Shown piece by piece: positions 784 through 39,148 of a stretch of 64,000 nucleotides of DNA. This DNA is from Malacoraja senta (Eukaryota). The stretch lies in the NCBI GenBank assembly GCA_038087875.1, contig CM075990.1, positions 16,866,001 through 16,930,000 of the forward strand. Reading direction: 5' to 3'. The position numbers and the translations under genes were made by a program. The notes beneath the pieces are model-generated. The model was not told the origin of the DNA, made no database searches, and saw nothing but the letters and a program-made list of their open reading frames with translations. Numbering within the stretch: position 1 is the first letter of the stretch; every line of letters begins with the position of its first letter.

Positions 784-974
784 GTAAGTCGTTATTTACT
801 CTAGCCTAAGATGTTAATTATACCCTCTGTGCGATACAACCTTGTAACAAACCAAAGCTGGTCATTGTTCTTTTCTCGCGCTGTTCTTGATTAATCAGGT
901 TGCACAATGCGGGACTTTTTATCTGAATTTAATGCTGTCATGTAATCAAAGTTTAAATAGATATATAAAAAAAC

Positions 975-14057: not shown

Positions 14058-15230
14058 TTACTACGGGTGTCTGGAGTTGTGGGGAGAAGACAGGAGAATG
14101 GGGTTGAGAGGGAAAGATAGATGAACAGTGATTGAATGGCGGAGTAGACTTAATGGGCCAAATTACCCAATTCTGCTCCTATAACTTATGAACATGAATA
14201 ATATTTTGGGAGCTTAATCATAGATAGAGCTGACCGTAAATCGTGAATTCATGAACCCAGGAATAGCCTGTTCAGTTCAGTCTAGTTTATTGTCCCGTGT
14301 ATCGAGGTACAGTGAAAAACTTTTGTTGCGTGCTAACCAGTCAGCAGAAAGACAATACATGATTACAATCGAGCCATTTACAGTGTACAGATACATGATA
14401 AGGGAATAGCGTTTAGTGCAAGGTAAAGCCAGCAAAGTCCGATCAAGGATAGTCCGAGCGTCACCAATGAGGTAGATAGTAGTATTCTAGATATACTGGA
14501 TAGCATCCTGTACACTGGATGTTACCGAACTAGGAACTGTAGATGTTAACAGGGTCAATGTGAAAACAGGGCATCTGTCAGGGAACCAGGTGCAATACAG
14601 ATCTTAAATTCTGCACCCGCCTCTCTCCAATATGCTGTTGAATAATTCCCAAAACATTGAGATTTCTACCAGCTACAACAGGTTAAATGCAAGATGCCTT
14701 TTATATTATAAAGGACACAAAGTGCTGGAGTAACTCAGCGCGTCAGACAGCATCTCTAGTGAACATGGACAGGTAACGTGACCCAAAACATCACCTGATT
14801 ATTTTCTCCAGATGTGCTGAGTTACTTCTATGCTTTGTGTGTTTATTTTGTAAACCAGCATCTGCAGTTCCTTTTTTAAAATCTTTGATATTACATGACA
14901 GACACCTGAGCAGTTAACACATTGGGGATAAATAGATACCAAAGATTTTCAATGGGTTTGTGGATGAATAATCATGTCAAGGGACCCTCACTAAAATACT
15001 TAAAGGAAAGATTTCTCAACAAACCTTCAAAGTGTTCTGACGTTTGTCATCACAAGGTTAAAATGTTAACAGACTTGTCTAAATAGCCATGTCTAAATGA
15101 TTCATGGAGGGAGATGAGTCTTTACATTTTAAAATTGTGTGTTCTTTCCTCTTAAAAAAAAATAATTACAGAGTCGTGGAGCTGTACAGCATTGAAACAG
15201 GCCCTTCAGCCCACCTTATCCATGCTGATC

Positions 15231-15369
15231 TCTTCTTCTTGCGTATTGCGTGCACAGCCTAAAGTTGTAGGTCAACTTGTTCTGTTTGATCTTATTTGCT
15301 TGTGCACGCTGGGTTGATTGCATTCGTCGAAACAGGGCAGACCACATGAAGGTTGCAATCTTCCACCCC
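15231..15369 (-). mobile_element. 139-bp ribozyme-headed short retroposon with (AAG)n tail
   Basis: TSD CATGCTGATC at 15221-15230 and 15370-15379; inserted into a CR1 3' end; 3' hairpins and an AAGAAGAAGA tail. Confidence 0.8.
15316..15369 (-). ncRNA. Minimal HDV-like (CPEB3-like) self-cleaving ribozyme fold
   Basis: Minus strand reads GGGGUGG AA GAUUGCA ACC UUCAUGU GGU CUGCCCU G UUUCGA CGAA UGCAAUC, which parses as P1, P2, P3, L3, P3', P1', mini-P4, J4/2 (CGAA) and P2'. Confidence 0.8.
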
Positions 15370-17281
15370 CATGCTGATCAAGCTGGCATACTAGGCTAGT
15401 GCCATTTTCCTGCATTTGGCCCATAGCCCTCTAAACCCTTCCTATCCATGCATCTGTCCAAATGTCGTTTGAAAGATGGAATTGTATTTCCTTCTACGGC
15501 TTCCTCTGGCAGCTCATTCCAGATATGGACCACCTACCTTTTGTTTTTCTGTGTGCAGTTTGTTATTGTGATCATGTGTGTTTGATTGTGTGTCCATTTT
15601 GTGGTCGTTCACCTGGACTGAGGTCAGTTGGCAGGGCTCGCCACGGGGAGGTGGACAACATGAGCCCCAACAAGCCTGTAAACACAGTACTCATCAATAA
15701 CACAATAGACAAAAGAAAGTTCAATAAATTGAATAAAAGCCCAAAGTCCCTCGTGCAACCAAGACAGTTATTAGTTCAAAGTTTAGTTGGAGTTTGTGGT
15801 GTTGAAGTGGCTGATAGTTGTTGGGAAGAAGCTGGTTTTCACTCATGTACCTGCTTGCCGGAGGCAGGAGTAAAGTGAAAGGGTTCTCCTCTTTGACTAA
15901 TACAGTCCACAGCAGTTTAGACCGTGGCTGTCTTCCCCTTTAGAAGAGGCACTTCAGGCTTGTTCCAGGAACATTGGGCCTGCTGTTGATATGCGCGTAT
16001 CCCTCCGAGACATGAAGTTGAGGATTTTCAGAGTTTTCGTGGAAATATCAACAATAAATAAGCTGGAACCGCAAGCTATGAAATGGAATGAACTAAACCA
16101 ATGTTAATCTGAAGAGAGTTTTGGCAGGTTAATATTTCATGAATCGAACCTGAAGCTAAATGTTAACCCATCTTTCTTCTGCTTTATGTGTGTATTGCTG
16201 CATCTGCTGCCTATCTCCAACACTCTGTGTTTTTACTTCAGGTTTCTGGGGCATTTATTTAAATAAATACATAAGTATTGAACTTACTGCATCCCTGTTA
16301 ACCAGAGACCTTGCTTATTCTTCCAGGTGGTTACTTATCTAATTACAAGCTGCCACCATTGGGAAATTTTAATTTCACCAGCAGGGCCCACTGTCATTTA
16401 GTTTAGAAAAGCTAAATTTAATTTCCTTCAAGAAAACAGCACAGCAACAGATGTGGGCAATTTAACCCCTCAAGCAAGTTGTGCTGTTCAGAGGCTGATC
16501 TACACTGTAACTCCACATGTCTGCTTTCCCCCGACATCTCGCAAAAGGCTTAGTTTAGTTAAGGGATACAGCCTGGAAACAGACCCTTTGGCCCACCTAG
16601 TCCATGCTGACCAGCGATCATCCATTCACACTACTTCTATGTGATCCCACTTTCTCATCCACTCCCTACACATTAGGGGCAATTTTTACAATATAACCCC
16701 CAAACCCGCACATCTTTGGGATGTGGAGGAAACCGGAGCACCTGGAGGAAACCCACACTTTCACAGGGAGAACGTGCAAACTCCACACAGACAGCACCCG
16801 AGGTCAGGATCGAACCGGACTCTCTGGTGCTGTGAGGTAGCAGCTCTACCAGATGCGCCACTTTGCCACCTTTGCTTAAGTAATCTTAACTAAGATTATC
16901 CCTTTGATGTAAAATTTACACTTGGCACTGCTCAGTAACTTGGGAAACTGGCAAGTAGAAAAAAAGCTGTCTTGGGGAAAAAAATGTTTCCCTGTAACCT
17001 ACCCACAGTAATCAGACACTTTAATCTACTATGAAAACAGTCTGTTAGTTTCACTGTGGGAGGCCATTGAAAATGGCCAGCAATCACTTTGTCACCAGAG
17101 TATAGAGGCTACATTTCTGCCTCTGCTTACAGAGGTGTTTCTGAACTTCACGCACAAAAGATGTGATGCTAATTGTTATGTCCTTCTCGTCTCCTCAAGG
17201 AGCAAAAGTAGTTTCTGTCTATCCAACCTCATCTGCGAACATACAGTTAACCGTGTTACAATATGATAGCTGTATTCCTAA

Positions 17282-30927: not shown

Positions 30928-31059
<132 letters not shown>

Positions 31060-33316: not shown

Positions 33317-33508
33317 CGAGACCATTCTTCAGTCAAAGAGTCTTGACCCGAAACGTCACCTATTCCTCCGCTCCATTGATGCTGCCTCACCCTCTGAGTT
33401 TCTCCAGCGTTGTTGTCTGCCTGCTAAACTATTTCTAGTGGGTTGGATCCGAATGGAGCTTTGTTGAAGCCTCCTCAGTTACAACCGATTATTTTCTTGC
33501 TCCCTCAG

Positions 33509-33741
33509 TGTTGTCCAAGAACAGTAAGCCGATCCACACCACCATCCTCAACCCGCATGTCCACCTGATCGGGGAGGATGCTGCCTGCATCGCCTACATC
33601 CGTCTAACGCAGTACATGGATGGGCAGGGACGACCTCGGACCACACAATCTGAGGAGACCCGGGTGTGGCACCGTCGCGAGGGCAAGTGGCAGAACATCC
33701 ACTTCCACTGCTCAGGTGCCCCAGCCGCACCGCTCCAGTGA
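33509..33741 (+). CDS. CAMK2G: Last coding exon of CaMKII gamma, (L)[18 protein letters not shown]...[13 protein letters not shown]
   Basis: ccctcag acceptor. The C-terminus [10 protein letters not shown] is characteristic of CAMK2G. TGA at 33739-33741; the exon continues to a donor after 33754. Confidence 0.95.
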
Positions 33742-38984: not shown

Positions 38985-39148
38985 TCTTCTTATGGAGTCC
39001 ACACACAAGATTACAAGTTGTTCAGCCAGAGCTGATCACACTTCTCGGCATCTGCATACAATGGTGTCTGTCTTGTCGCTTCTTGTGCTTGGTGGTGGGA
39101 GGAATGGTGGAAATAGGGCCGCGACGTGAACGCTCTTTCCTTGACCCC
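38985..39148 (-). mobile_element. About 164-bp short retroposon headed by a degenerate HDV-like ribozyme
   Basis: Minus strand starts GGGGUC AA GGAAAGA GCG UUCACGU CGC GGCCCU and ends in an AAGAAGA tail. GTTCAT direct repeat at 38979-38984 and 39150-39155. Confidence 0.65.

What the first reader, a model, noticed from the sequence alone, without database searches (positions are those of the whole stretch)
15231..15369. Ribozyme-headed SINE: a 139-bp retroposon starting exactly at the cleavage site of a minimal HDV/CPEB3-like ribozyme
Seen: a 139-bp insertion in a CR1 3' end with a 10-bp TSD (CATGCTGATC) and a minus-strand (AAG)n tail. Its first 54 nt fit the HDV nested double pseudoknot: P1 GGGGUGG/CUGCCCU with the G+1:U wobble, P2 GAUUGCA/UGCAAUC (7 perfect bp), P3 ACC/GGU, L3 UUCAUGU, P1.1 G, P4 reduced to UUUCGA, and J4/2 CGAA with the catalytic-C equivalent at 15326. 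The two internal P1 wobbles and the L3 difference from UUCACGU are all CpG>TpG changes, implying an ancestral GGGGCGG/CCGCCCU/UUCACGU. The 3' half has nested hairpins (GCGUGCACA/UGUGCACGC and AAGUUG/CAACUU), and there is no tRNA, 5S or 7SL head. Established: the CPEB3 ribozyme has L3 UUCACGU and J4/2 CGAA; HDV-like ribozymes process the 5' ends of RTE and R2 retrotransposons. Inference: a promoter-less non-autonomous element that cuts its 5' end out of host transcripts and is copied by an RTE LINE. It is antisense to CAMK2G, so it would not cut that pre-mRNA. Novelty cannot be confirmed without a database search.
Basis: partly seen in the sequence, partly recalled or inferred. Interest (0 to 1): 0.92.

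Follow-up and report, generated by a model that had tools for sequence, protein, structure and literature searches.

The report
Ribozyme-headed mini-LINE retroposon family
A 139-base mobile element found in thousands of copies starts exactly at the predicted cutting site of a tiny HDV/CPEB3-type self-cleaving RNA fold that it inherited, with its tail, from a parent LINE; this kind of element is known, but related LINE heads in the same genome match the "mammalian" CPEB3 ribozyme model, which may bear on that ribozyme's origin.

Summary
Window 15231-15369 (minus strand) is a 139-nt retroposon with a 10-11-nt target-site duplication and an (AAG)n tail. Its first 54 nt fit every helix of an HDV-like double pseudoknot. 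The family has at least 2,400 copies, and all 60 copies I inspected begin at or within one base of the predicted cleavage site. It is not a new kind of SINE. A ~3.1-kb APE+RT LINE in the same genome carries the same 54-nt head at its own 5' end and the same last ~40 nt. The element is therefore an internally deleted ("bipartite non-autonomous") LINE, a kind already described for RTE, R2 and Ingi. A second, independent deletion derivative also exists (59 junction matches). Copies within the family show no compensatory changes. LINE relatives from metagenomes carry the same fold with different P1, P2 and P3 sequences. Rfam does not match the window copy, and no RNA data exist, so cleavage is inferred and not shown. 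One unexpected result: Rfam's "Mammalian CPEB3 ribozyme" model matches at least 39 places in this genome, many just upstream of a second LINE family's ORF. Verdict: a new member of a known kind, with a notable CPEB3 lead.

The parts
15231..15369 (-). Whole 139-nt non-autonomous retroposon (family A copy); about 5% diverged from the family majority
15370..15379 (.). Target-site duplication, copy on the 5' side of the element (CATGCTGATC on + strand)
15221..15230 (.). Target-site duplication, copy on the 3' side of the element
15316..15369 (-). 54-nt HDV/CPEB3-type ribozyme fold (element positions 1-54); predicted cleavage 5' of G at 15369
15363..15369 (-). P1 5' strand GGGGUGG (positions 1-7)
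15354..15360 (-). P2 5' strand GAUUGCA (positions 10-16)
15341..15353 (-). P3 ACC / L3 UUCAUGU (family majority UUCACGU) / P3' GGU (positions 17-29); C22 pairs with G37 (P1.1)
15334..15340 (-). P1 3' strand CUGCCCU (family majority CCGCCCU; parent LINE CCACCCU), positions 30-36
15327..15333 (-). G37 U38 (P1.1 side) and a 5-nt linker UUCGA where P4 would be (positions 37-43)
15323..15326 (-). J4/2 CGAA (CUAA in the parent LINE); C44 at 15326 is the putative catalytic cytosine
15316..15322 (-). P2 3' strand UGCAAUC (positions 48-54)
15271..15315 (-). Middle part (positions 55-99). About the first 25 nt match the LINE 5' UTR just after its ribozyme; the origin of the rest is unknown. It holds the 5' arm GCGUGCACA and the hairpin AAGUUG/CAACUU
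15231..15270 (-). Tail shared with the LINE 3' end (positions 100-139): the last codons plus the TAG stop of the LINE ORF, a ~20-nt 3' UTR and (AAG)n
15393..15533 (-). Host sequence: C-terminal end of a LINE-like ORF remnant into whose 3' UTR the element inserted (context only)
   Evidence: empty-site form in other copies, joint 15219->15369

Best explanation
The element is a bipartite non-autonomous retroposon: an internally deleted copy of a ~3.1-kb LINE with a single APE+RT ORF and RTE-like architecture. It keeps only the LINE's first ~80 nt and last ~40 nt. The first 54 nt fold into a minimal HDV/CPEB3-type double-pseudoknot ribozyme with almost no P4. Inferred mechanism: copies have no promoter of their own and are transcribed as part of longer host or read-through transcripts. 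The ribozyme cuts immediately 5' of G1 and so creates the exact 5' end of the RNA. The parent LINE's protein recognises the shared 3' end and copies the RNA into a new site by target-primed reverse transcription, which leaves a 10-14-nt target duplication and an (AAG)n tail. Shown here: the family, its exact shared 5' end, the shared head and tail with the LINE, the fit of the fold, and its covariation across LINE relatives. Inferred: catalysis, lack of a promoter, and which protein mobilises it.
For: (1) Exact 5' ends. All 30 best genome matches start GGGGTGG. Of 30 copies taken in chromosome order after an exact 22-mer match, 19 start GGGGTGG, 8 have one substitution in the first 7 nt, 2 have lost one G, and 1 has an internal deletion. 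Perfect TSDs of at least 8 nt abut the start in 15 of 26 and 17 of 30 copies. (2) Four other coded organisms hold the family. Contig loose ends fall exactly at 15231 (517/476/519/532 records) and at 15369 (247/not listed/195/179). (3) Shared tail. A pattern excluding the SINE body gave 223 matches, control 0. About 88 of the 100 listed rows carry one alternative upstream sequence that is a LINE ORF end, with its stop codon inside the shared tail. Pfam confirms the LINE domains: RVT_1 E 2.4e-23 and Exo_endo_phos_2 E 1.7e-8. (4) Shared head. The LINE 5' end carries element positions 8-54 or 1-54, followed by a 5' UTR and the APE domain. (5) A second deletion derivative joins the LINE's 5' ~97 nt directly to the tail, has TSDs, and gives 59 junction matches at <= 1 mismatch, control 0. 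A ~93-nt variant also keeps the head and tail. (6) In 9 of 14 LINE 5' loci, antisense LINE sequence directly abuts positions 1-13 of the head. This is what twin-priming inversions would give if template RNAs ended at G1. (7) Chance fit is excluded. (8) Covariation across relatives. In 80 metagenome loci encoding related LINE proteins, the strict descriptor hit only 4 loci, all on the + strand just upstream of the ORF, and Rfam added 3 more. Across the 8 heads compared, P1 pairs 5-7 show 3-4 pair types each, 2 of 3 P3 pairs vary, and P2 differs entirely yet pairs fully. L3 (TYCACGY) and J4/2 (CTAA or CGAA) stay constant. (9) One relative reaches 55.6 bits on Rfam CPEB3_ribozyme, gathering 35. 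(10) Print precedent. RTE LINEs are predicted to carry 5' HDV-like ribozymes, and RTE, Ingi and R2 give bipartite non-autonomous derivatives (PMC5786205 passages; PMC6765202 passages). Silkmoth R2 ribozymes lack P4 (PMC3774820 passages).
Against: No Rfam family matches the window copy even at E <= 10, and the whole window has no match at gathering score. Within the family, 0 of 18 pairs show a change on both sides, and no measure exceeds the shuffles; 60 of the 84 rows had been selected by a pattern that covers positions 33-54. A covariance model built only from five relatives' 5' halves scores the window head at just 16.6 bits, E 0.31, and the LINE heads at 20.8 bits, E 0.039. The nested minimum-energy fold of the 54-mer is no better than shuffles (z +0.31); pseudoknots are not modelled there. 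P4 is reduced to a 5-nt linker. Only 4 of 15 metagenome relatives with an ORF N-terminus show a detectable ribozyme, and those were found by tools that demand pairing, so the covariation set is ascertained. No LINE copy with an intact ORF was seen: the longest open frame was 681 aa with an internal stop. My descriptor rules are recalled, not taken from a paper I could read.
Confidence: 0.78

Rival explanations
1. The precise 5' end comes from transcription initiation at an internal promoter in the first ~50 nt, as in L1 or jockey. On this view the HDV-like fold is inactive or incidental.
For: No cleavage or RNA-end data exist. There is no Rfam hit and no within-family covariation. In L1Tc the same 77 nt act as both promoter and ribozyme (PMC3383444, abstract in the listing), so a promoter role cannot be excluded.
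Against: A chance fit anchored on the terminal base is below about 1e-6 per position. The fold is kept through compensatory changes in LINE relatives. A relative passes the CPEB3 model.
Confidence: 0.08
2. The fold is a genuine ribozyme lineage, but the version in this family has lost P4 and is catalytically dead. The family amplified while the LINE head was still active, or its ends are set in some other way.
For: P4 is reduced to 5 nt. The J4/2 second base differs between LINE (U) and SINE (G). The covariance model from relatives scores the head weakly. All LINE copies seen are decayed.
Against: Thousands of copies at ~95% identity, and two further deletion derivatives, all keep the exact 5' end. 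Natural HDV-like ribozymes without P4 are described (PMC3774820 passages).
Confidence: 0.09
3. The head is retained mainly as a structured 5' cap substitute or a protein- or ribosome-binding module, the IRES-like role proposed for R2 and L1Tc heads. Cleavage would be secondary.
For: HDV-like heads are proposed to support translation initiation (PMC6765202 passages). The LINE 5' UTR segment after the head is complementary to the 3' UTR.
Against: The 139-nt element encodes nothing, so translation cannot explain retention in three non-coding derivatives.
Confidence: 0.05

Closest known systems
Bipartite non-autonomous RTE elements (Repbase-type names RTE-N, RTESINE1/2, WALLSI3, MAR4), as described in PMC5786205
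   Same: They consist only of the 5' and 3' ends of a LINE with RTE-like architecture, have no ORF, keep the LINE's true 5' end and end in a microsatellite-like tail. The paper itself links retention of the 5' end to a predicted self-cleaving ribozyme.
   Different: This element is much shorter: 139 nt, against 195-286 nt for the RTE-N consensus lengths listed in that paper. The head is a 54-nt fold without P4. This family's presence in Repbase or Dfam could not be checked. The RTE clade of the parent was not tested by phylogeny.
R2 SIDEs (short internally deleted elements) of Drosophila, PMC3414825 (abstract only, listing)
   Same: Internal deletion derivatives that keep the 5' HDV-like ribozyme and the 3' protein-binding end.
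   Different: R2 is site-specific in 28S rDNA and uses a different endonuclease type. The family here is dispersed and its TSDs have many different sequences.
NARTc / L1Tc Pr77-L1TcRz of Trypanosoma cruzi (PMC3185411, PMC3383444; abstracts)
   Same: An autonomous LINE and its truncated non-autonomous partner share an HDV-like ribozyme in the first 77 nt.
   Different: They belong to the Ingi clade in kinetoplastids, cleavage was shown in vitro, and the same DNA is also a promoter. None of this was tested here.
Mammalian CPEB3 ribozyme (Rfam RF00622; PMC4836649 passages)
   Same: The numbering is the same through L3. The core letters U20, C22, A23, G25 match, J4/2 is C-G-A-A, and P1.1 is one G-C pair plus U-U (passages compared). 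Relatives in this genome and in metagenome contigs pass the RF00622 gathering score.
   Different: The window copy has no P4 and does not match RF00622. It heads a retroposon, whereas CPEB3's ribozyme is a single conserved intronic copy.
Minimal HDV-like ribozymes of microbiomes and theta ribozymes (search listing only)
   Same: Very small HDV-like folds.
   Different: They occur in bacteria or phages and are not retroposon heads. I read only titles and abstracts.

Membership tests
HDV-like self-cleaving ribozyme (nested double pseudoknot) | P1 of about 7 bp that starts at the cleavage site and pairs with the 7 nt just 3' of P3/L3 | tested here: met
   7 of 7 pairs in the window copy; 94.8% of cells paired over 49 distinct heads.
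HDV-like self-cleaving ribozyme (nested double pseudoknot) | P2 pseudoknot closing the fold, with J4/2 directly before its 3' strand | tested here: met
   7 of 7 pairs; 96.5% of cells paired. The P2 3' strand lay inside the selection pattern for 60 of the 84 rows.
HDV-like self-cleaving ribozyme (nested double pseudoknot) | 3-bp P3, ~7-nt L3, and P1.1 between an L3 cytosine and the G after P1' | tested here: met
   P3 97.3% paired; C22-G37 in 49 of 49 distinct heads.
HDV-like self-cleaving ribozyme (nested double pseudoknot) | Catalytic cytosine at the first position of J4/2 | tested here: met
   C44 is invariant in 84 of 84 heads. Only the 38 rows not chosen by the pattern (L001-L030 and 8 LINE or second-derivative rows) are informative, and all 38 have C.
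HDV-like self-cleaving ribozyme (nested double pseudoknot) | P4 helix | tested here: not met
   Only a 5-nt linker is present. P4 is absent or variable in R2 ribozymes (PMC3774820 passages), so it is not strictly defining.
HDV-like self-cleaving ribozyme (nested double pseudoknot) | Match to a curated covariance model (Rfam HDV, CPEB3 or drz families) | tested here: not met
   None at E <= 10 or at gathering score for the window. Relatives do match: RF00622 at 55.6-64.2 bits and RF02682 at 30-42 bits, below its gathering score of 44.
HDV-like self-cleaving ribozyme (nested double pseudoknot) | Compensatory base changes that preserve the helices | tested here: inconclusive
   Within the family, 0 pairs changed on both sides. 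Across 8 heads of related LINEs, P1 pairs 5-7, P3 pairs 1 and 3 and all of P2 covary, but those heads were found by methods that require pairing.
HDV-like self-cleaving ribozyme (nested double pseudoknot) | Mg2+-dependent self-cleavage 5' of G1 | not testable with these tools
   No RNA run was listed; a bench assay is needed.
Bipartite non-autonomous LINE (internal-deletion derivative) | 5' end identical to the 5' end of an autonomous LINE | tested here: met
   LINE 5' loci L094, L095, L100, L102 and L106.
Bipartite non-autonomous LINE (internal-deletion derivative) | 3' end identical to that LINE's 3' end | tested here: met
Bipartite non-autonomous LINE (internal-deletion derivative) | No ORF; dispersed copies with TSDs | tested here: met
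   139 nt long; TSDs of varied sequence.
RTE clade of LINEs (parent element) | Single ORF with N-terminal APE and RT, no ORF1, about 3.1-3.3 kb, very short 3' UTR and a short-repeat tail | tested here: met
   APE follows a ~165-nt 5' UTR. RVT_1 is present. The stop codon lies ~20 nt before (AAG)n. Length ~3.1 kb was estimated from one copy. Relatives are ~1000-aa proteins on 3.1-3.5-kb contigs.
RTE clade of LINEs (parent element) | Placement inside RTE in an RT phylogeny, as opposed to Vingi or Ingi, which have similar architecture | not tested
   No labelled reference sequences were on hand. Source names were uninformative.
Canonical SINE (pol III head from tRNA, 5S or 7SL) | Head derived from a small RNA gene with an internal promoter | tested here: not met
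   ARAGORN found none. Rfam at E <= 10 found no small-RNA family.

The most novel reading that the evidence does not exclude
The mammalian CPEB3 ribozyme may be a domesticated head of this LINE lineage. Rfam's RF00622 model, said in 2021 to have no counterpart outside mammals (PMC8233481, passage), matches at least 39 places in this genome at or above its gathering score, best 64.2 bits. At least 9 of the top 20 lie 59-111 nt upstream of the APE domain of a second LINE family with open frames up to 1014 aa. It also matches decayed LINE copies in three metagenome contigs, where 35 of the 37 positions from P1 to P1' equal the model consensus, including the freely variable helices P1 and P2. On this reading, the window's 54-nt head is a miniaturised member of that lineage, and thousands of sense-oriented copies could cut host transcripts.
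Probability: 0.3. Interest if true: 0.8.

Novelty: new member of a known kind. Interest (0 to 1): 0.6.

Why it matters
The element shows how far a retroposon can shrink and still spread. About 54 nt make its own 5' end and about 40 nt are recognised by the LINE protein. A vertebrate genome tolerates thousands of copies, and at least four other organisms hold the family. If active, it would be among the smallest natural eukaryotic HDV-type ribozymes and a compact, natural RNA 5'-end-defining module. The wider lead matters more. CPEB3-model ribozymes sit at LINE 5' ends in this genome. They would supply the outgroups that CPEB3-ribozyme evolution studies say are missing. They would also make the old question of where the CPEB3 and HDV ribozymes came from directly testable.

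Tried and rejected
RNA evidence: no RNA holder was listed and no raw reads were on offer. In-vivo 5' ends therefore could not be read; only DNA contigs were laid.

Rfam on the window gave nothing relevant.

A LINE carrying the identical 22-nt core but a different downstream sequence was not found. All 30 inspected of the 60 pattern matches were family copies with indels. The LINE was instead found from the 3' side.

Local BLAST of the element against the window and the first 30 loci gave no partial copies.

Within-family covariation gave no signal.

A related LINE family (about 41% aa identity, 886-aa open frame) was checked for a diverged head. Its 381-nt 5' flank (L115) shows no fit to my descriptor and scored nothing with model R1.

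Source names from the homologue search did not settle the LINE clade.

It was replaced by a genome search with PF08332.

Ruminski 2011 and Webb 2009 are not held. What they report about RTE heads is known to me only through the papers that cite them.

My first translation of the host ORF was in the wrong frame and was redone.

The search of earlier findings returned nothing.

Full report
**What is there**

On the minus strand, window 15369->15231 is a 139-nt sequence. It is bounded by the direct repeat CATGCTGATC and ends in AAGAAGAAGA.
- P1 GGGGUGG/CUGCCCU
- J1/2 AA
- P2 GAUUGCA/UGCAAUC
- P3 ACC/GGU
- L3 UUCAUGU
- G37
- a 5-nt linker in place of P4
- J4/2 CGAA, with C44 at window 15326

The descriptor is my own and was written from recalled rules. 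It found 2 loci in 5,000,000 random bases modelled on the window, none with P2 of at least 7 bp and none as short as 60 nt. In 725,976 real bases it found only one low-complexity locus outside the family. A fit anchored on the terminal base of a retroposon is therefore not chance.

**It is a large family with an exact 5' end**

- The genome that holds the window (1.94 Gb) gave 3,803 first-look candidates. All 40 scored matches were full length at 94-100% identity.
- A 22-nt core occurs exactly 2,412 times, with 0 for the reversed control.
- All 30 best copies start GGGGTGG.
- Of 30 further copies taken in chromosome order, 19 start GGGGTGG, 8 have one substitution in the first seven bases, 2 have lost one G, and 1 has an internal deletion.
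- Perfect target duplications of 8 nt or more abut the start in 15 of 26 and 17 of 30 copies. Four and two copies respectively could not be evaluated by the script, and imperfect duplications were not counted.
- DNA contigs from four other coded organisms hold the family at very high depth. Loose ends fall exactly at 15231 and 15369. Some contigs skip 15220-15368, which is the uninterrupted form of the host repeat.
T5 is invariant in 84 of 84 heads, so the predicted ancestral GGGGCGG is wrong.

**Where it comes from**

I searched for the tail while forbidding the SINE body. This gave 223 matches, control 0. About 88 of the 100 listed rows share a different upstream sequence. That sequence is the end of a LINE ORF. 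The last codons and the TAG stop lie inside the shared tail, and only about 20 nt follow before (AAG)n.

The LINE encodes RVT_1 (E 2.4e-23) and an APE endonuclease (Exo_endo_phos_2, E 1.7e-8). About 2,100 candidate 3' ends exist, all decayed. Walking 5' along one long copy showed the same ribozyme sequence ahead of a ~165-nt 5' UTR and the APE domain.

Twenty small loci then showed three things:
- LINE 5' ends begin GGGGTGGGAG (L100 and L102; L095, L104 and L106 nearly so).
- In 9 of 14 LINE 5' loci, antisense LINE sequence directly abuts positions 1-13 of the head, the pattern expected from twin-priming inversions on RNAs that end at G1.
- A second deletion derivative joins the LINE's first ~97 nt straight to the tail and has its own target duplications. 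Its junction gives 59 matches at 1 mismatch or fewer, control 0.

A ~93-nt variant of the main family also keeps the head and tail. The LINE is about 3.1 kb by estimate from one copy.

The element is therefore an internally deleted LINE. The LINE head differs from the SINE head at position 8 (unpaired), at position 32 (U5-A instead of U5.G) and at position 45 (J4/2 CUAA instead of CGAA).

**Is the fold a ribozyme?**

Evidence within the family is silent. 96.1% of cells pair, but no pair changes on both sides and nothing exceeds the shuffles. Sixty of the 84 rows had been selected with a pattern that covers positions 33-54. Four further results count against, or do not help:
- Rfam does not match the window copy.
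- The nested fold of the 54-mer is no better than shuffles (z +0.31).
- No RNA data exist.
- A covariance model built only from five relatives scores the window head at 16.6 bits, E 0.31, and the LINE heads at 20.8 bits, E 0.039.

Evidence from relatives is positive. The LINE's RT has ~1000-aa APE+RT relatives on 3.1-3.5-kb contigs. Eighty metagenome loci encoding such proteins were fetched. My strict descriptor hit only four of them over 446,888 bases, all on the coding strand just upstream of the ORF. Rfam added three more below its gathering score.

Across the eight heads compared:
- P1 pairs 5, 6 and 7 show three to four pair types each.
- P3 pairs 1 and 3 show three types each.
- P2 is different in every lineage yet fully paired.
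- Three close relatives differ by two clean compensatory swaps in P2.
- L3 (TYCACGY), the G after P1' and J4/2 (CTAA or CGAA) stay fixed.

The caveat is ascertainment. Only 4 of 15 loci with an ORF N-terminus show a head, and the tools that found them demand pairing.

**What is already in print**

- A review states that RTEs and baggins elements carry HDV-like ribozymes, lack promoters, and that some SINEs use such ribozymes (PMC6765202, passages).
- Kojima 2018 describes bipartite non-autonomous LINEs of RTE, Ingi, Vingi and R2. The paper ties their retention of the true 5' end to a predicted self-cleaving ribozyme (PMC5786205, passages).
- R2 ribozymes can lack P4 (PMC3774820, passages).
- CPEB3's L3 and J4/2 letters match this head (PMC4836649, passages).

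The finding is therefore a new member of a known kind. I could not read Ruminski 2011 or Webb 2009, and I could not query Repbase or Dfam.

**An unplanned result**

One metagenome relative matches Rfam's "Mammalian CPEB3 ribozyme" at 55.6 bits (gathering score 35). In that match, 35 of 37 positions from P1 to P1' equal the model consensus.

Searching the window's own genome with RF00622 gave 51 matches, of which 39 reach the gathering score. The best is 64.2 bits. Only 59 of a rough 102,000 first-look candidates were scored, and 0 of 14 control genomes matched. At least 9 of the top 20 sit 59-111 nt upstream, on the same strand, of APE matches belonging to a second LINE family with open frames up to 1014 aa. 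Two were confirmed by cmscan.

[quoted passage not shown] Four searches of the held library found no paper that links it to LINE heads.

**Two more ribozyme-like heads in the window**

- At 39147 (minus strand) there is a decayed CPEB3-type head followed by an AAG-like tail.
- At 15668 (minus strand) there is an HDV-like fold that heads a third family. In the genome search, 38 of the 39 other scored copies start at query position 1 (the predicted G1) and one at position 2.

**Side claims**

- CaMKII association-domain exons lie on the + strand at window 30943-31041 and 33493-33723. The copy is therefore antisense to a CaMKII-family gene. Which paralogue it is was not tested.
- The host sequence is the end of a LINE-like ORF on the minus strand (43% identity over 42 aa to another copy, E 3e-13).

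Noticed in passing
own genome, e.g. L196 (57-140, minus strand) and L197 (56-139, minus strand); places listed: Rfam RF00622 'Mammalian CPEB3 ribozyme' matches at least 39 places at or above its gathering score (best 64.2 bits). At least 9 of the top 20 lie just upstream of the APE domain of a second LINE family with open frames up to 1014 aa.
   Followed up: partly
L183, L184, L185 at 806-889 (+): Three metagenome contigs carry a decayed LINE of the same broad clade (36-37% aa identity to the window family's LINE). Its 5' UTR matches RF00622 at 55.6 bits.
   Followed up: partly
window 38985-39147 (minus strand): A second short element starts GGGGTCAAGG with a CPEB3-type P3/L3/P3' (GCG TTCACGT CGC) and ends in an AAG-like tail. 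The copy lacks the P4 and J4/2 part and looks decayed.
   Followed up: partly
window 15556-15668 (minus strand): A third HDV-like fold (P1 GGGGCTC/GAGCCCT). The genome gave 609 first-look candidates. Of the 39 other scored copies, 38 begin at query position 1 and one at position 2. Six of 9 exact-start copies have P3 ACC/GGT where the window copy has ACC/GGC.
   Followed up: partly
window 15246-15254 with 15302-15310 (minus-strand element positions ~61-69 and ~116-124); LINE L094 ~1635-1645: The LINE 5' UTR segment right after the ribozyme (..CGTGCACA..) is complementary to its 3' UTR (..TGTGCACGC..). In the short element the two form a long-range stem; the 3' domain folds with z -3.51. This may bring the two RNA ends together.
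   Followed up: no
L096, L098-L101, L103-L106; also L093 2394-2447 (minus strand): Nine of 14 LINE 5' loci have antisense LINE sequence directly abutting the head, like twin-priming 5' inversions.
   Followed up: partly
own genome C20:6844495-6860556: Five copies of the second deletion derivative's junction sit at about 3.1-6.6 kb spacing, all with the same variant letter. This suggests a tandem or segmental repeat.
   Followed up: no
window 30943-31041 and 33493-33723 (+): Exons of a CaMKII association domain (PF08332, 40 and 109.9 bits).
   Followed up: no
L094 1517-1581: In this LINE copy the first 7 nt of the head are replaced by a stretch that looks to me like a tRNA-derived SINE fragment (by recall, not tested). 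This copy is 5'-truncated or rearranged.
   Followed up: no
window 15185-15226 and 15409-15450: The host repeat flanking the element is itself extremely abundant in the contigs of the four other organisms laid.
   Followed up: no
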